Of a DNA stretch of 64,000 nt, positions 4,221 to 32,208 are shown piece by piece. A model generated the notes under the pieces. That model saw only the letters and a list, made by a program, of their open reading frames with translations. It was not told the DNA's origin and did not search any database. Source of the stretch: the human T2T-CHM13v2.0 reference genome, Homo sapiens. The stretch is taken from assembly GCF_009914755.1 (NCBI RefSeq), contig NC_060940.1, one strand, 5' to 3'. The number at the start of each line of letters is the position of its first letter. Positions within the stretch are counted from its first letter, which is position 1. The translations under genes were made by a program, and so were the position numbers.

Positions 4221-4365
4221 TTGTCTCTGGGCGGTGATCCAGAGAGAGAGAGAACACGACTGTCTCAGCACTGGGTCTTCTTCTGAGTCTTGAAGGAGCA
4301 CTTCCAGAGCGTCTCAGTGTTAAACATCATGTTGTGAATGACTCCGTGAGCTCTGACCCAGTAAC
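4221..4365 (-). pseudogene. ENPP7P: ENPP7-like pseudo-exon 2
   Basis: Acceptor cctcccctcctttatccccaag, then (G)YWVRAHGVIHNMMFNTETLWKCSFKTQKKTQC*DSRVL, frameshift in (CT)6, LWITAQRQ. Recalled ENPP7: GKYIENHGVVHNMYYNTT...WWDNGSVPIWITAQRQ. The donor position reads GG. Confidence 0.92.
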
Positions 4366-4671
4366 CTTGGGGATAAAGGAGGGGAGGTACGGATAAGCTC
4401 TTTGAATGGATGTTGCCGGGGTGTCAGGGTTCTTTGAGGGCACAGACTATGTGTCACAAAGAAAGAGCCCAGTGCCTTTTCTCATTGCTCAAGAGATTGA
4501 AGGGGTAGGAAGAAAAGATGTTAAGTTATAAACATGTTTCAGTTTTGGTACCAGTTGAACCAATTACATTTTGAAGAGGAAAGAGTCTTGCCTACAAAGT
4601 CAGCCCCCGGGTTTTCCTTCTGCTTATGGAATCCAGGCAATGGGCAAAGAGAAAAAGAAAACTAAGGAATC

Positions 4672-4966
4672 AGCCAGGTGCAGTGGCTCATGCTTGTGAT
4701 CTTGGCACTTTGGGAAGCTGAGGCAGGTGGACTTCTTGAGTCCGGGAGTTCAAGACCAGCCTGGCCGACATAGTGAGACCCCGTTTCTACAAAAAATACA
4801 AAAAGTTGCTGAGCATGGTGGCATGCACCCGTAGTCCCAGTTACTTGGGAGGCTGACGTGGGACAACTACTTCATCCCAGAGGTTGAGGCTGCAGTGAGC
4901 CATGATCATGCCACTATACTCCAGCCTGGGTGACAGAGTGAGGCCCTGTCTCAAAAGAAAACAAAA
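4672..4966 (+). mobile_element. AluJ
   Basis: Diverged full Alu whose tail is interrupted by a younger Alu. Confidence 0.9.
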
Positions 4967-5270
4967 GGCCGGGCGCGGTGGCTCACGCCTGTAATCCCAG
5001 CACTTTGGGAGGCCGAGGCGGGTGGATCACGAGGTCAGGAGATCGAGACCATCCTGGCTAACACGGTGAAACCCCGTCTCTACTAAAAAATACAAAAAAT
5101 TAGCTGGGCGAGGTGGCGGGCGCCTGTAGTCCCAGCTACTCGGGAGGCTGAGGCAGGAGAATGGCGTGAACCCCAGGGGGCAGAGCCTGCAGTGAGCCGA
5201 GATTGCGCCACTGCACTCCAGCCTGGGCGACAGCGAGACTCCGTCTCAAAAAAAAAAAAAAAAAAAAAAA
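4967..5270 (+). mobile_element. AluYe5-type young Alu
   Basis: Diagnostics gggcgAggtgg, aaccccaggggg, gagcCtgc, cgacagcgag (2-bp deletion); A23 tail; TSD aaaagaaaacaaaa. Confidence 0.85.
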
Positions 5271-5430
5271 GAAAACAAAAAAGAAAAACAAAACTAGGGA
5301 ATCTAGACAGAGTAAGTTTATATATATAATAAAGAACTGAGATAGAACTGGGTTGACTGAGTAATTATTTGAATTGCTTTTGACTGAATTTTTCTTATTG
5401 GAGTCTACCTTTGTTTGTGTGTGTGTGTGG

Positions 5431-5760
5431 TTTTTTTTTTTTTTTTTGGTTTAGTTTTGTCTTTGTGTTTTTTTGAGACTGGGCCTTGCTCTGTTGCGTA
5501 GGCTGCTGGAGAGTGGTGGCGTGATCTCAGCTTACTGCAACCTCTGCTCCTGGGTTCCAGCAATTCTTCTGCCTCAGCCTCCCAAATAGCTGGGACTACT
5601 GAGCATGTACCATCAAGCCCAGCTAATTTTTGTGTTTTTAGTAGAGATGGGGTTTCACCATGTTGGCCAGGCCTGGTCTTGAACTCCTGGGCTCAAGTGA
5701 TCTGTCTGCCTCGGCCTCCTAAAGTGCTGGGATTACAGGTGTGAGTCCCTGTGCCCAGCT
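5431..5760 (-). mobile_element. Alu
   Basis: Full antisense Alu with T-rich tail, preceded by short (GT)n. Confidence 0.92.
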
Positions 5761-6600
5761 AGAGTGCACCTTTCTTTGAATTCGCTGCAGTGCAAAGACT
5801 GGGACATGTGGAACTCCAGGTGTATATGGGTTACATAGAGATGCTAGGGGCTGATTAAGGAAGGAAAGATATGAGAAGCCTGCAGAACATGCTTTCCCAG
5901 ACTGTATGGGCCCTGGGAAAGGAGAAGTGGACAGAAAGGGAACACTGGATGCCCTGGAAGAGAAGATTCATCCAAGTCATCAGGGAAGTTACTAATGCAA
6001 GGGAAGAAATGCAGAGACAGAGCCAAACACGCTTCTTCCAAGTCCTTTCTGTGCGCTCTGTCACCTCTATGCTTATTTTTCTTCTTTCCTCTAAGTAGTG
6101 TCATGCGTTTTCTTCCCATTCCTAGTCACTCGTAATCAACTAACTCCTCTCTTTACCATCTTTTCATCAGAACTTGAAACCTCCTCTCCTTCATATATTA
6201 GTGATCATGTTTCTCCATAATACAGCTAGAAACAAGAATTGAAACCTGGAAAACCTGCATTTGAGTACCAGATCTGCCTCTGCTAGCTATTTGAGAAGTT
6301 ATTTTGTTCCATTCTTTTTGTTGTTGTTGAAACAGGGTGTCACTCTGTCGCCCAGGCTGGAGTGCAGTGGTTCAATCTTGGCTCACTGCAGCCTCAACCT
6401 CCTGGGCTCAAGCAATCCTTCCACATCAGCCTCCTGAGTAGCTGGGACTACAGGTGTGTGCCACCACACCTGGCTAATTTTTAATGTTTATTTATTTATT
6501 TTTGTTTACTTATTTGTTTTTGTAGAGATGGGGTATTGCTATGTTGCACAGGCTGGTCTCAAACTTGTGGGCTCAAGTGATCCTCCTGCCTTGGCGTCTC

Positions 6601-30379: not shown

Positions 30380-30700
30380 CCCTCTATTTTAGTGGCCACT
30401 GGGATTCTGAAATGACCAGGTCTTTGTTTCAGAGACCTCACACATGCTGTTCCCTCTGCCTGGAACACTTTTCCTTGCTCTGGTCCCCTGAGATCTCTTT
30501 CAGCTCAACTTCCCCATGCTCAGAGAGCCCCTTTCTCCCTCTCTAGTTTGAAGCGAACTTACCCCTGTAGTCTGTGCCTGGAAAACTCGTTTTCCTCCTT
30601 GGTGCCTCCTGAGTTGTCACGGGATGTATGTGCCTGTTAGGGTGTCTGGTGTCTGTCTCCCCGACTGGACTGCATGCTCCTGGTGAGCTGGAGGGACTGG
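30380..30700 (+). mobile_element. L2 fragment
   Basis: cacatgctgttccctctgcctggaacac...gtctgtctccccgactggactgcatgctcc. Confidence 0.65.
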
Positions 30701-31009
30701 ACTAGCACAGGCCAAGGCCCTGGGGCTGGAGAGAGCAGGGCAGAAAGCACAGGCAAAAGGCATTTGTGATCTGGAGGGAAGTGAAGGAGAGGGAGAGAGA
30801 TGAGAGAGGCTGGCAGAAGATGGGCCAGGGGCCAGGCTGCGTGGTATCTTCTGGGCCACAGAAAGACATTTGAATTCTCATGTAAGAGAACCAGGACACC
30901 ATTGGAGGGTATGAGTCACCTCATCTAACTGAGCTCTGTAAATGTCAATGTTTTATTATTTTTATACAATTCTTTAGAAGTGATTTTAATTATTTACCTT
31001 CCTATTTTA

Positions 31010-31309
31010 ATTATTTTTATTTTTTTTGAGATGGAATCTTGCTCTGTTGCCCAAACTGGAGTGTAATGGCACGATCTCGGCTCACTTCAACTTCCACCTC
31101 CTGGGTTCAAGTGATTCTTCTGTCTCAGACTCCTGAGTAGCTGGGGTTATAGGCGTCTGCCACCACGCCCAGCTTGTTTTTGTATTTTTAGGAGAGACGA
31201 TGTTTCACCATGTTGGCCAGGCTGGTCTTGAACTCCTGACCTCAGGTGATCCACCCACCTTGGCCTCCCAAAGTGCTGGGATTGCAGGGGTGAGCCACCA
31301 TGCCCGGCC
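31010..31309 (-). mobile_element. AluS
   Basis: Full antisense Alu. Confidence 0.94.
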
Positions 31310-31334
31310 TTATTTACTTTTTTAAAAAAGATCA

Positions 31335-31628
31335 GGCCAGGCACGGTAGCTCATGTCTCTAATCTCAGCACTTTGAGAGACTGAGGTGGGATGATCACCT
31401 GAGCCCAGGAGTTCAAAACCAGCCTAGGCAACATAGTGAGACATCCGCTTCCCGAATCTCTAAAAAAATGAGAAAATTAGGCATGGTGGCTTGTGTGTAT
31501 CCCCAGCTACTGGGGAGGCTGAGGTAGGGAGGACTGCTTGAGACCAGGAGTTTGAGGCTCCACTGAGCTGTGATTATGCCACTGAGCTGCAGCCTGGGCA
31601 AAAGAGTGAGACCCCATCTCAAAAAAAT
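31335..31628 (+). mobile_element. AluJ
   Basis: Full Alu, head-to-head with the previous Alu. Confidence 0.92.
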
Positions 31629-31959
31629 GCCACATTCTTTTAATTACTTACTTTTACAGAAGACCACTGGTCCTGGTGGGGAAGGGCCTGGGAGCAGGGA
31701 GACCCCTCAGGTGGCTGCAACCCCGGTCCTGGTCCTGTCTGCAGGCTGGGTCTCGAGGCCCAAGTGACGGCCCTGCACCCCTGCACCCCCACACCTCACA
31801 GTGTATTCTGACCTGGTGCTGCTCCTGGGGCATGGCGCTGGGCTGCAGGAGCCGCCTCAGCCTCTCTAGAGCTGACTGAGCTTTTGCTTCTTATTCCGGG
31901 GAATGATGGGCGCTGGGGCTTTGATGGGCATCAGGTGAAATGGGCAGAGTGGTGCTTAC

Positions 31960-32208
31960 CCGGGATGGCGGTGAAGTGGGACGGGGAGGTCATCGTGACA
32001 AAGGGCGGCATGAGGTACTTGGCCTTGACGCCCTCCCCAGCCAGACCATCCAGGTTGGGGGTGTCCACATCCTGATCCTAGTCTCAGTGGAAGCCCTCAA
32101 AGGAGATCAGTAGCAGCCGTGAGTGCTCTTCCTCCCTGGGACGGGGTGGCCGCCCAGCAGGACAAGCGGTGGCAGCAGCAGCAGCTGGAGGGCCCCGAGC
32201 CCTGTCAT
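31960..32208 (-). pseudogene. ENPP7P: ENPP7-like pseudo-exon 1
   Basis: MTGLGALQLLLLPPLVLLGGHPVP (signal peptide-like), frameshift, then REEEHSRLLLISFEGFH*D*DQDVDTPNLDGLAGEGVKAKYLMPPFVTMTSPSHFTAIPG followed by a GTAAGC donor. Recalled ENPP7: KLLLVSFDGFRWNYDQDVDTPNLDAMARDGVKARYMTPAFVTMTSPCHFTLVTG. Confidence 0.95.

What the first reader, a model, noticed from the sequence alone, without database searches (positions are those of the whole stretch)
4221..32208. Fossil of a second, ancient ENPP7 paralogue (lost alkaline sphingomyelinase-like gene) rather than a recent ENPP7 copy
Seen: two minus-strand exons 27.6 kb apart splice in phase and give a signal peptide plus the N-terminal NPP catalytic region. 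Against human ENPP7 as I recall it, hand counts give ~35/54 identity in exon 1 and ~19/49 in exon 2. Changes are mostly conservative and concentrated outside the motifs, with only about six disabling lesions. The intron holds ancient repeats (L2, MER5, MER20, MLT1), so it is old, whereas ENPP7 itself is a compact gene. Established: ENPP7 neighbours RBFOX3 on 17q25, and an ENPP7P locus neighbours RBFOX1 on 16p13.3. Inference: this is a long-selected paralogue, possibly a whole-genome-duplication ohnologue, that died relatively recently. It would then be a unitary gene loss whose remnant was later spread by segmental duplication. Residues such as TSPSHFT, W after the exon junction, HNMMFN and VL[P]LW resemble my recollection of the second enpp7 clade in non-mammalian vertebrates, which needs verifying.
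Basis: partly seen in the sequence, partly recalled or inferred. Interest (0 to 1): 0.82.

Follow-up and report, generated by a model that had tools for sequence, protein, structure and literature searches.

The report
Relic of a lost ENPP7-like gene
This stretch of human chromosome 16 holds the dead remains of a second, ancient relative of the gut enzyme alkaline sphingomyelinase, a gene that many other mammals still keep intact but that the human lineage lost long ago and then copied, already broken, to about fifteen other places.

Summary
Two minus-strand exons (32208-31960 and 4365-4221) join in phase across a 27.6-kb intron and encode the signal peptide and N-terminal NPP catalytic region.

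The locus, annotated ENPP7P14, does not derive from ENPP7. It is the relic of a separate paralogue that RefSeq calls "ENPP7-like". That gene is predicted intact in tree shrew, cattle, panda, pangolin, mole, xenarthrans, marsupials, echidna, reptiles, amphibians, ray-finned fishes and sharks.

- **Placement:** the relic sits inside the eutherian ENPP7-like clade (bootstrap 100 / SH-aLRT 97) and carries the ENPP7-like state at 29 of 37 diagnostic columns. Nesting in mammalian ENPP7 is rejected (p-AU 4e-5).
- **Extent:** it has six exons over about 49 kb, four of them outside the window. A 1.7-kb deletion removed exon 4.
- **Age of the split:** it predates jawed vertebrates on the tree. Both genes lie head-to-head with an RBFOX gene, which fits a 2R ohnologue pair.
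- **Correction:** the gene did not die recently. At least seven disabling lesions are shared by the 13-15 duplicated copies, which differ by 4-12% in their flanks, and an Old World monkey fragment shares derived states.

Not tested: synteny in other vertebrates, dN/dS, intron repeat ages.

The parts
31960..32208 (-). Exon 1 of the ENPP7-like relic: start codon, signal peptide, and the N-terminal NPP region with the nucleophile motif VTMTSP.
   Evidence: Identity is 40-42/52 to eutherian ENPP7-like and 34/52 to human ENPP7. The GT donor is intact in 16 of 16 copies.
32120..32124 (-). One-nucleotide deletion (frameshift) just after GRKS. Five bases stand where orthologues have two codons.
   Evidence: the frame changes between GGHPVPGRKS and RLLLISF. 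None of the 16 copies differs in length here, so the lesion is shared.
32096..32098 (-). Metal-binding Asp of SFDGFR replaced: GAG (Glu) at 16p13.3, CAG (Gln) in most copies.
32084..32086 (-). TGA at the Trp of FRW. Private to the 16p13.3 locus; the other 15 copies have TGG.
32078..32080 (-). TAG at the Tyr of WDYDQD. Shared by 15 of 16 copies; C4_9.61 has AAG.
4366..31959 (-). Intron 1, 27,594 nt, phase 1.
4221..4365 (-). Exon 2, 145 nt (true ENPP7 has 146 nt). It holds the HGVIHNMMFN...WITAQRQ segment.
   Evidence: Identity is 33/46 to eutherian ENPP7-like and 18/46 to human ENPP7.
4265..4267 (-). TGA at the second Trp of EWWDNG (the first Trp is Cys). Shared by 14 of 14 copies.
4242..4249 (-). 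CT-repeat stretch with 2 extra bases (frameshift) where orthologues have Pro-Leu. Most copies have the same length, but the repeat length varies in 5 copies.
4219..4220 (-). Dead splice donor of exon 2: CAA|GG where ENPP7 has CAG|GT. Shared by 14 of 14 copies.
1..4220 (-). The part of intron 2 that lies inside the window. The rest of the relic lies beyond the window's left edge and cannot be entered as parts. In hub-style coordinates it comprises:
- Exon 3 at -5027..-5649 (C16:5140351-5140973), 623 nt. Lesions: a 1-nt deletion before LSVIIT (14 of 14 copies); TGA at the Ser of TSDHG (12 of 14); Asp to Gly (private); one lost Lys codon (private).
- The junction of a deletion of about 1.7 kb that removed exon 4, at -12647..-12654.
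- Exon 5, the open transmembrane-helix exon, at -12990..-13106.
- The last coding exon, (Q)RADQNSKSKAVPLAQF plus stop, at -16593..-16647, about 2 kb from EEF2KMT.
   Evidence: Exon 3: (67-75% identical to mammalian ENPP7-like; the ENPP7 exon is 54-60% identical to the same proteins). Deletion: (copies C11_3.5 and C3_128.6 hold 1,690 and 1,746 extra bases that contain exon 4). Exon 5: (23/39, E 4e-7). Last exon: (weak, E 0.25), compared with the C-termini.

Best explanation
The feature is the ancestral-locus relic, a unitary pseudogene, of a gene that RefSeq calls 'ENPP7-like' in other species. ENPP7-like is a paralogue of ENPP7 (alkaline sphingomyelinase). It is found from sharks to mammals and its predicted frame is intact in many non-primate mammals.

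The intact protein has a signal peptide and an NPP catalytic domain in which all seven catalytic or metal-binding positions are conserved. Unlike ENPP7, it also has a C-terminal transmembrane helix with a short cytoplasmic tail. By inference it is an active, membrane-anchored ecto-phosphodiesterase.

In the human lineage the gene was disabled early, before the catarrhine duplication burst and probably early in primate history. It then drifted neutrally. The whole dead gene, together with its neighbours, was copied to chromosomes 3, 4, 7, 8, 11 and 12. The 16p13.3 original later picked up further private damage, including a 1.7-kb deletion of exon 4.

ENPP7 and ENPP7-like most likely separated in the vertebrate 2R genome duplications, together with RBFOX3 and RBFOX1. 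The relic encodes nothing today. Any present activity would be as non-coding DNA or RNA.

The confidence of 0.85 is for the central claim: a relic of the ENPP7-like paralogue at its ancestral locus, dead before the duplications. The 2R origin alone I put at about 0.7.
For: **Shown**

1. Closest intact relatives.
- Exon 1 finds 172 proteins at E<=0.001 among 179 candidates (120 listed). The best full-length ones are 'ENPP7-like' of tree shrew, cattle, panda, mole, pangolin, anteater, armadillo, marsupials, echidna, reptiles, a newt and sharks.
- The open first half of exon 3 finds 295 among 313 candidates (120 listed). Intact ENPP7-like proteins score 73-82% identity, and no true ENPP7 is in the list.

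2. Both genes coexist in the same species. Tree shrew, pangolin, mole, armadillo, sloth, anteater, Tasmanian devil, monito del monte, echidna, two geckos, tuatara and alligator each have both.

3. Careful ML tree of 47 rows. The relic sits inside boreoeutherian (95/85), eutherian (100/97), mammalian (100/99) and amniote (100/96) ENPP7-like clades. The whole ENPP7-like clade, with amphibians, lungfish, coelacanth, ray-finned fishes and sharks, has 100/99. True ENPP7 is separate at 99/94.

4. AU tests. Relic plus mammalian ENPP7 costs 194.8 lnL, p 4e-5. An amniote-stem duplication costs 111.6 lnL, p 2.6e-89.

5. Of 37 columns diagnostic between the paralogues, the relic has the ENPP7-like state at 29, the ENPP7 state at 1 and neither at 7.

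6. Gene structure. The exon boundaries and phases match ENPP7. Exons 3, 5 and 6 are found downstream. Exon 4 is deleted.

7. No intact copy exists in the assembly. Every exon 2 copy has TGA (14 of 14), and all exon 3 copies carry the 1-nt deletion.

8. Lesions shared by nearly all copies. Variation among the copies is spread evenly over codon positions, 50/50/56 variable sites.

9. Synteny. Pfam Fox-1_C hits exactly three loci, on C16, C17 and C22. ENPP7 (+ strand) lies beyond the 5' side of RBFOX3 (- strand). The relic (- strand) lies upstream of RBFOX1 (+ strand; hub table). Both pairs are therefore head-to-head.

10. The catalytic motifs are conserved in the intact proteins and broken in the relic.

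**Inferred**
- 2R origin. The RBFOX1/2/3 families are treated as consistent with 2R in PMC13622825 (passage only).
- The date of death, the enzymatic activity and the membrane topology.
Against: - The loosest rival, the relic as sister to the whole ENPP7 clade, is only borderline: it costs 28.7 lnL, p-AU 0.059.
- In the 82-row quick tree the root of the ENPP7-like clade fell among eutherians, next to the long shrew branch. Orderly rooting appeared only after I left out 35 rows, the shrew among them.
- The ENPP7 clade holds only amniotes plus one unnamed representative (P0310). So the tree does not show cartilaginous or bony fishes on both sides, as a 2R pair ideally would. Long-branch attraction of a fast ENPP7 lineage toward the outgroups is not excluded.
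- The relic's 21.5% difference from the eutherian consensus is matched by two 'intact' predictions, shrew at 22.1% and sloth at 19.5%. The excess-substitution dating is therefore soft.
- The Ser codon of TSDHG is TCA in copy C11_3.5 and CGA in C4_9.05.
- Indel patterns among the copies are mosaic, so gene conversion may blur which lesions were ancestral.
- Intactness of the orthologues rests on predicted proteins only.
- Their position next to RBFOX1 and EEF2KMT in other species could not be checked.
Confidence: 0.85

Rival explanations
1. The locus is an old, decayed duplicate of ENPP7 itself, as the name ENPP7P14 implies. On this view it was copied from 17q25 and diverged neutrally.
For: Among solved structures the best match is human ENPP7. 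The exon 1 DNA aligns to the ENPP7 locus at 76% over 148 nt. Placing the relic as sister to all ENPP7 is not rejected at 0.05, p-AU 0.059.
Against: - Nesting in mammalian ENPP7 is rejected, ΔlnL 194.8, p 4e-5.
- The relic has the ENPP7-like state at 29 diagnostic columns and the ENPP7 state at 1.
- Exon 2 is 33/46 identical to ENPP7-like and 18/46 to ENPP7. Even shark (27/46) is closer than human ENPP7.
- The relic has the transmembrane and tail exons that ENPP7 lacks.
- True recent ENPP7 copies do exist and look quite different: 93-95% identity at C16 33.9 and 35.3 Mb.
Confidence: 0.03
2. ENPP7 and ENPP7-like are ancient paralogues but not 2R ohnologues. The split would be a small-scale duplication, either tandem before 2R or dispersed afterwards, and the RBFOX neighbourhoods would be coincidental or secondary.
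For: The ENPP7 clade contains no named fish, shark or amphibian. Three unnamed representatives (P0312, P0323, P0314) are nearer to ENPP7 than to ENPP7-like by BLAST, but their taxa are unknown. The rooting was unstable in the larger tree.
Against: The gene order and the head-to-head orientation with an RBFOX paralogue are the same in both regions (and hub table). An amniote-stem duplication is rejected. The ENPP7-like clade follows the species tree from sharks to mammals.
Confidence: 0.2
3. The gene died recently: long selection until late in ape or human evolution, followed by quick decay.
For: The remaining reading frames are long. Exon 5 and the last exon are still open. Only about six lesions lie in exons 1-2.
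Against: - These lesions are shared by nearly all copies: the exon 1 frameshift and TAG; the exon 2 TGA, +2 frameshift and dead donor; the exon 3 frameshift and TGA.
- Those copies differ from 16p13.3 by K2P 0.04-0.12 in their intronic flanks.
- The consensus of the copies is already 18.9% from the eutherian protein consensus.
- A Cercocebus model shares 16 of 41 human-derived states and is itself decayed.
- No intact primate ENPP7-like protein appears in the 120 best hits, although true ENPP7 of lemurs, galago, loris and tarsier appears in the parallel search.
Confidence: 0.04
4. 16p13.3 is not the ancestral locus but one of the duplicated copies. The original would lie at another site of the family.
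For: 16p13.3 lacks exon 4, which at least five copies keep. It also carries several private lesions. Relationships among the copies are mosaic.
Against: - Per the hub table, only 16p13.3 lies beside the protein-coding ALG1 and EEF2KMT and upstream of RBFOX1.
- That arrangement mirrors ENPP7-RBFOX3.
- Private damage is expected in a locus that has drifted as long as its copies.
- That the other sites carry ALG1 and FAM86 pseudogene copies is recalled, except for ALG1L1P and ENPP7P7, which the preprint places within segmental duplications (passages).
Confidence: 0.04

Closest known systems
Predicted 'ENPP7-like' genes of other vertebrates in RefSeq/UniProt (e.g. Tupaia chinensis P0014, Bos javanicus P0027, Ailuropoda melanoleuca P0041, Sarcophilus harrisii P0047, Heptranchias perlo P0049)
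   Same: The relic falls in the same orthologous clade. It is 67-75% identical over exon 3 and 33/46 over exon 2. It has the same hallmark residues (TSPSHFT, HNMMFN, VLPLW) and the same transmembrane and tail exons.
   Different: Those genes have intact predicted frames with all catalytic residues. The human locus has 4 stops, 3 frameshifts, a dead donor, two lost codons, two lost metal ligands and no exon 4. I found no experimental study of any ENPP7-like protein: the search 'ENPP7-like' returned 0 papers.
ENPP7 / alkaline sphingomyelinase (human, structures 5TCD and 5UDY)
   Same: Same Pfam family (PF01663), the same exon boundaries and phases for exons 1-3, the same catalytic motifs, and the best match among solved structures.
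   Different: It is a different paralogue. The relic differs from the eutherian ENPP7 consensus at 51% of sites. ENPP7 is compact, about 6 kb, against about 49 kb for the relic. ENPP7 ends in a hydrophobic stretch rather than a transmembrane helix plus a basic tail. ENPP7 lies at 17q25 beside RBFOX3.
The other human ENPP7P pseudogenes in the segmental duplications on chr3, 4, 7, 8, 11 and 12
   Same: They are copies of this same dead gene, 89-96% identical, with the same exon spacing and the same core lesions.
   Different: They are secondary copies. Several keep exon 4 and the Asp of TSDHG, which 16p13.3 has lost. Some have their own extra frameshifts.
Recent partial copies of true ENPP7 near the chr16 centromere (C16:33.94 and 35.34 Mb)
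   Same: They too are pseudogenic ENPP7-family fragments in this genome.
   Different: They are 93-95% identical to the 5' 2.4 kb of ENPP7 itself, and only 75% identical to the relic's exon 1. So the genome holds two unrelated classes of ENPP7-type pseudogene.

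Membership tests
NPP / type I phosphodiesterase-nucleotide pyrophosphatase superfamily (Pfam PF01663) | A significant match to the family profile above the curated cut-off. | tested here: met
   Exon 1 piece 24.4 bits and exon 3 piece 46.1 bits, cut-off 23. PDB phmmer gives ENPP7 at 4.2e-13.
NPP / type I phosphodiesterase-nucleotide pyrophosphatase superfamily (Pfam PF01663) | A complete set of catalytic and metal-binding residues: Asp of FDGF, Thr nucleophile, Asn, Asp/His of GEPDxxGH, Asp/His of TSDHG, His of GxHGFDN. | tested here: not met
   The relic reads SFEGFH and ITXGHGM, and the exon holding GDHGFDN is deleted. The Thr, the Asn and GEPD..GH are kept. It is a dead member, not an enzyme.
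ENPP7 (alkaline sphingomyelinase) orthologue group | Nests within the ENPP7 clade in a phylogeny. | tested here: not met
   The relic lies outside the ENPP7 clade (99/94). Nesting in mammalian ENPP7 is rejected at p 4e-5. Sister to all ENPP7 is borderline at p 0.059. It has the ENPP7 state at 1 of 37 diagnostic columns.
ENPP7-like orthologue group | Nests within the clade of ENPP7-like proteins, at the place expected for a primate. | tested here: met
   Eutherian clade 100/97 and boreoeutherian clade 95/85. It has the ENPP7-like state at 29 of 37 diagnostic columns.
ENPP7-like orthologue group | C-terminal transmembrane helix and tail exons, which ENPP7 lacks. | tested here: met
   Exon 5 at -12990..-13106 (E 4e-7). 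The last exon, with its stop at the orthologous place, at -16593..-16647. C-termini are compared.
ENPP7-like orthologue group | Same chromosomal neighbourhood (EEF2KMT/ALG1 to RBFOX1) as the intact gene in other species. | not testable with these tools
   No vertebrate genome other than the human assembly can be searched, and the protein hits come without genomic context.
Unitary pseudogene | Disabling lesions at the ancestral locus, and no intact copy anywhere in the genome. | tested here: met
   Lesions are documented. A whole-assembly search with the tree shrew protein gave 84 matches: every exon 2 copy has TGA, and every exon 3 copy is split or carries stops. Only one assembly was examined.
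Unitary pseudogene | A functional orthologue in related species. | tested here: inconclusive
   Full-length predicted proteins with all catalytic motifs exist in 9 or more eutherian genera, marsupials and a monotreme. They are predictions, and no expression or activity data were seen.
2R ohnologue pair (ENPP7 / ENPP7-like) | The split predates the radiation of jawed vertebrates. | tested here: inconclusive
   ENPP7 lies outside a clade that includes sharks (100/99), and an amniote-stem origin is rejected. However, no named non-amniote falls in the ENPP7 clade, and long-branch effects are possible.
2R ohnologue pair (ENPP7 / ENPP7-like) | The two genes lie in paralogous chromosome blocks beside other ohnologues. 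| tested here: met
   RBFOX1, RBFOX3 and RBFOX2 are the only Fox-1_C loci. Both ENPP7-type genes lie upstream of, and head-to-head with, an RBFOX gene (hub table). The RBFOX families are treated as consistent with 2R in PMC13622825 (passage).

The most novel reading that the evidence does not exclude
ENPP7-like, not ENPP7, is the slowly evolving, ancestral-type gene of jawed vertebrates. It would be a type I transmembrane ecto-phosphodiesterase with a conserved T-x-L/F tail. The genes annotated 'enpp7' in fishes, sharks and amphibians would be its orthologues, while ENPP7 / alkaline sphingomyelinase would be the fast-evolving ohnologue, seen here only in amniotes. Humans, apparently all primates, and by absence from the hit lists also rodents and rabbits, would then lack an enzyme that most vertebrates keep. 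Fish 'enpp7' experiments would model the gene that humans have lost.
Probability: 0.4. Interest if true: 0.62.

Novelty: new member of a known kind. Interest (0 to 1): 0.5.

Why it matters
The name ENPP7P14, and those of its roughly fifteen sister loci, implies decayed copies of alkaline sphingomyelinase. The evidence here says they are the remains of a different gene, one that many mammals keep and that nobody appears to have studied.

- This corrects the parentage of a whole human pseudogene family.
- It adds a well-documented case to the list of human and primate gene losses.
- It points to an uncharacterised membrane-anchored phosphodiesterase in cattle, carnivores, marsupials, reptiles and fishes. 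Its substrates may overlap those of ENPP7 (sphingomyelin, lyso-PC, PAF).
- It warns that 'enpp7' genes of zebrafish and other non-amniotes may not be orthologues of the human enzyme.
- It shows that the RefSeq pseudogene span stops 11 kb short of the true 3' end.

I found no paper that makes the link. Searches run: 'ENPP7P' (25 papers, none of the 20 listed on its origin), 'ENPP7-like' (0), ENPP7 + pseudogene + paralog (1, unrelated), ENPP7 + unitary pseudogene (0), ENPP7 + ohnolog (0), and alkaline sphingomyelinase + ENPP7 + gene duplication (1, unrelated). Comparative databases probably show it implicitly.

Tried and rejected
- **Processed copy.** tblastn seemed to align residues 117-129 both in exon 2 and just upstream of exon 3. 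The second alignment is read-through of the polypyrimidine tract and acceptor, so this idea was rejected.
- **One-base insertion at the start of exon 3.** I suspected one until the true ENPP7 boundaries showed that exon 2 ends in phase 0. Rejected.
- **82-row quick tree.** It rooted the ENPP7-like clade among eutherians, beside the long shrew branch. I treated this as a long-branch effect and rebuilt with 47 rows. Left out: shrew, sloth ENPP7-like, four unnamed proteins, five outgroups and 24 further rows.
- **Dating the death.** I tried the excess of amino-acid change and the lesion counts. These gave only a soft estimate, because two 'intact' predictions are as divergent as the relic.
- **Not possible with these tools:**
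  - Branch dN/dS, because no orthologous coding DNA is available.
  - The ages of the intron repeats, because there is no repeat library.
  - Synteny of the intact orthologues, because no other vertebrate genome can be searched.
- **Literature.** The searches gave nothing on the origin of the ENPP7P loci. The gecko-genome paper PMC5901865 does not mention ENPP7 (term search only).
- **Report form.** The exons outside the window are now described under the intron 2 part and in the text.

Full report
**1. The observation**

On the minus strand an ATG at 32208 opens a signal-peptide-like sequence, MTGLGALQLLLLPPLVLLGGHPVPGRKS. After a one-base frameshift the reading continues RLLLISFEGFH*D*DQDVDTPNLDGLAGEGVKAKYLMPPFVTMTSPSHFTAIP, up to a G|GTAAG donor at 31960/31959.

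A second exon starts at 4365, behind ccccaag. It reads (G)YWVRAHGVIHNMMFNTETLWKCSFKTQKKTQC*DSRVL, then a CT repeat, then LWITAQRQ. It ends at 4221. True ENPP7, read from the same assembly, has the same phase-1 junction (ACC G|GTGAGT ... cag|GC AAA) and ends its exon 2 at the same residue (CAG|GTAATG). The intron is 27,594 nt.

The similarity is not chance. The open 37-residue piece hits human ENPP7 (5tcd) at E 4.2e-13, with bacterial NPPs next at 1.7e-4. Pfam PF01663 is passed by the exon 1 and exon 3 pieces.

**2. The relic is larger than the finding**

Coordinates below 1 lie outside the window, to its left, as in the hub table.

tblastn with intact relatives found exon 3 just outside the window, at -5027..-5649. 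This agrees with the RefSeq span, which ends at -5664. Exon 3 is 67-75% identical to mammalian ENPP7-like proteins. The ENPP7 exon 3 is 54-60% identical to the same proteins.

Further downstream, beyond the annotation, lie two more exons:
- An open transmembrane-helix exon at -12990..-13106 (23/39 to tree shrew, E 4e-7).
- A last exon, (Q)RADQNSKSKAVPLAQF, with its stop at the orthologous position, at -16593..-16647.

Exon 4 is missing at 16p13.3. It survives in five duplicated copies. Compared with two of those copies, 16p13.3 lacks 1,690 and 1,746 bases at about -12,650, with 8 bp of overlap at the junction. That is a deletion of about 1.7 kb. The relic therefore has six exons over about 49 kb and ends about 2 kb from EEF2KMT.

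**3. Parentage**

The large protein collection holds named vertebrate proteins. Three searches were run.
- Exon 1, with its stops read as X, found 172 proteins at E<=0.001 among 179 candidates; 120 were listed.
- The open half of exon 3 found 295 among 313 candidates; 120 were listed.
- Human ENPP7 exon 3 returned true ENPP7 of many of the same species; 621 among 1005 candidates, 120 listed.

In the first two searches the best full-length hits are proteins that RefSeq calls 'ENPP7-like'. They come from tree shrew, cattle, panda, pangolins, mole, shrew, a bat, anteater, armadillo, sloth, marsupials, echidna, reptiles, amphibians, lungfish, coelacanth, ray-finned fishes and sharks. The only primate entries are short or falsely started models from chimpanzee, bonobo, a colobus and a mangabey. 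Because the third search returned ENPP7 from the same species, two paralogues coexist in those species.

A careful ML tree of 47 rows gives these supports:

| Clade | Bootstrap / SH-aLRT |
|---|---|
| Boreoeutherian ENPP7-like, with the relic | 95/85 |
| Eutherian ENPP7-like, with the relic | 100/97 |
| Mammalian ENPP7-like | 100/99 |
| Amniote ENPP7-like | 100/96 |
| Whole ENPP7-like clade, sharks included | 100/99 |
| True ENPP7 | 99/94 |

AU tests:
- Forcing the relic into mammalian ENPP7 costs 194.8 lnL, p-AU 4e-5.
- The loosest rival, the relic beside the whole ENPP7 clade, costs 28.7 lnL and is only borderline, p 0.059.

Independent of the tree, at 37 columns where the two eutherian paralogues differ consistently, the relic has the ENPP7-like state at 29, the ENPP7 state at 1 and neither at 7.

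**4. Age of the split**

ENPP7 falls outside a clade that follows the species tree from sharks to mammals. A duplication in the amniote stem is rejected, ΔlnL 111.6.

In the human assembly the Fox-1_C domain marks exactly three loci, on C16 (RBFOX1), C17 (RBFOX3) and C22 (RBFOX2).
- ENPP7 (+ strand, C17:80.63 Mb) lies beyond the 5' side of RBFOX3 (- strand).
- The relic (- strand) lies about 91 kb upstream of RBFOX1 (+ strand; hub table).

So the order and the head-to-head orientation are the same in both regions. RBFOX1/2/3 are used as a family consistent with 2R in PMC13622825 (one passage seen). A 2R ohnologue pair is therefore the best reading.

Caveats:
- No named fish, shark or amphibian sits in the ENPP7 clade. 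The only non-amniote candidates are unnamed representatives (P0310 is 65% identical to a snake ENPP7; P0312, P0323 and P0314 are slightly nearer to ENPP7 than to ENPP7-like).
- The 82-row quick tree rooted the ENPP7-like clade oddly, beside the long shrew branch.
- A fast ENPP7 lineage could be drawn toward the outgroups.

**5. Spread and time of death**

The counts of copies in the assembly:

| Exon | Further copies | Identity to 16p13.3 |
|---|---|---|
| 1 | 15 | 89-91% |
| 2 | 13 | 91-96% |
| 3 | 13 | 93-95% |

The copies lie on chromosomes 3, 4, 7, 8, 11 and 12, and they keep the exon spacing.

Lesions shared by all or nearly all copies:
- The exon 1 one-base deletion (no length variation among the 16 copies).
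- The exon 1 TAG (15 of 16).
- Loss of the metal-binding Asp of FDGF.
- The exon 2 TGA (14 of 14).
- The +2 CT insertion in exon 2 (most copies).
- The dead exon 2 donor, CAA|GG (14 of 14).
- The exon 3 one-base deletion (14 of 14).
- The exon 3 TGA at the Ser of TSDHG (12 of 14; C11_3.5 has TCA and C4_9.05 has CGA).

Lesions private to 16p13.3:
- The exon 1 TGA.
- Asp to Gly in TSDHG.
- A lost Lys codon in exon 3.
- The exon 4 deletion.

A lost Thr codon in exon 2 is shared only with two chr3 copies.

Further measurements:
- Intronic flanks differ from 16p13.3 by K2P 0.04-0.12, with means of 0.072, 0.104 and 0.057 around exons 1, 2 and 3.
- Variable sites among the copies are even over codon positions, 50/50/56. 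That indicates neutral drift since copying.
- The consensus of the copies already differs from the eutherian ENPP7-like consensus at 64/338 sites (18.9%). The 16p13.3 sequence differs at 71/331 (21.5%). Eleven of 13 intact eutherian proteins differ at 5.7-13.9%, but sloth (19.5%) and shrew (22.1%) are as divergent.
- A Cercocebus model (P0129) starts falsely in intron 2, reads ITGDHG, keeps exon 4, and shares 16 of 41 human-derived states.

With a catarrhine rate of about 1e-9 per site per year (recalled), the flank distances place the duplications tens of millions of years ago. The death of the gene came before that. By inference it was probably early in primate history. 'Died relatively recently' is not supported.

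**6. What the intact gene is like**

The motifs SFDGFR, VTMTSP, HGV[IV]HN, GEPDxxGH, TSDHGM and GDHGFDN are conserved in the ten intact sequences compared. The exceptions are GDHSFDN in tree shrew, GDHGFSS in Danio and a first-residue change in two motifs.

Tree shrew, cattle, Tasmanian devil and a shark end in a transmembrane helix, a basic patch, and a tail finishing in TQL, TEL, TQL and TEF. ENPP7 ends in a hydrophobic stretch instead.

By inference the intact protein is an active, membrane-anchored ecto-phosphodiesterase. Its substrate is unknown.

**7. Known or new**

The locus is annotated as a pseudogene of ENPP7, and the duplications are known. ENPP7P7 is treated as a non-coding RNA inside a segmental duplication in bioRxiv 10.64898/2025.12.03.692127 (passages seen).

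I found no paper that assigns these loci to a lost paralogue, and no paper on any ENPP7-like protein ('enpp7.2' appears once, in a carp expression paper, listing only). Subscription journals, and supplements I did not open, may hold more.

**Verdict**

This is a real, well-supported unitary loss of an ancient ENPP7-family paralogue. Its timing was wrong, and the extent it gave was too small.

Noticed in passing
L018 (C16:35340184-35343331) and L019 (C16:33942541-33945688), outside the window: Two loci near the chr16 centromere are 93-95% identical to the 5' 2.4 kb of true ENPP7 (exon 1 plus flanks), and only 75% identical to the relic's exon 1. The genome therefore holds two unrelated classes of ENPP7-type pseudogene: recent partial copies of ENPP7, and copies of the dead ENPP7-like gene.
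   Followed up: partly
Window -5664 to -16647 (C16:5129353-5140336), outside the window: The RefSeq span of ENPP7P14 ends at exon 3. An open transmembrane exon and the last coding exon, with its original stop, lie 7.3 and 10.9 kb further downstream.
   Followed up: yes
Proteins P0014, P0027, P0047, P0049 (C-termini printed): Intact ENPP7-like proteins from shark to mammals end in T-x-L/F (TQL, TEL, TQL, TEF) after a transmembrane helix and a basic patch. This looks like a class I PDZ-binding tail, a motif name I recall from memory and did not test. The human relic's last exon ends in AQF.
   Followed up: no
Copies C11_3.5 (L034) and C4_9.05 (L032), exon 3: At the Ser codon of TSDHG, 12 of 14 copies have TGA, but C11_3.5 has TCA (Ser) and C4_9.05 has CGA. 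A one-base deletion in a C run is present in 9 copies and absent from 16p13.3, three chr8 copies and C4_9.05. This conflicts with the grouping given by the lost Thr codon in exon 2. Gene conversion or recurrent change among the copies seems likely.
   Followed up: partly
and one search hit lists: No rodent, rabbit, afrotherian, horse, rhinoceros or bird ENPP7-like protein appears among the 120 best hits, although true ENPP7 of many of these groups appears in the parallel list. This hints at several independent losses.
   Followed up: no
Proteins P0188 (Boleophthalmus, 753 aa) and P0189 (Synchiropus, 844 aa): Two fish proteins score above human ENPP7's own orthologues because they are about twice the normal length. 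They may be tandem ENPP7-family genes fused in prediction.
   Followed up: no
Protein P0096 (Sorex fumeus ENPP7-like) and P0135 (Choloepus): These 'intact' predictions are as far from the eutherian consensus (22.1% and 19.5%) as the human pseudogene. They may be fast-evolving, mis-predicted, or decaying themselves.
   Followed up: no
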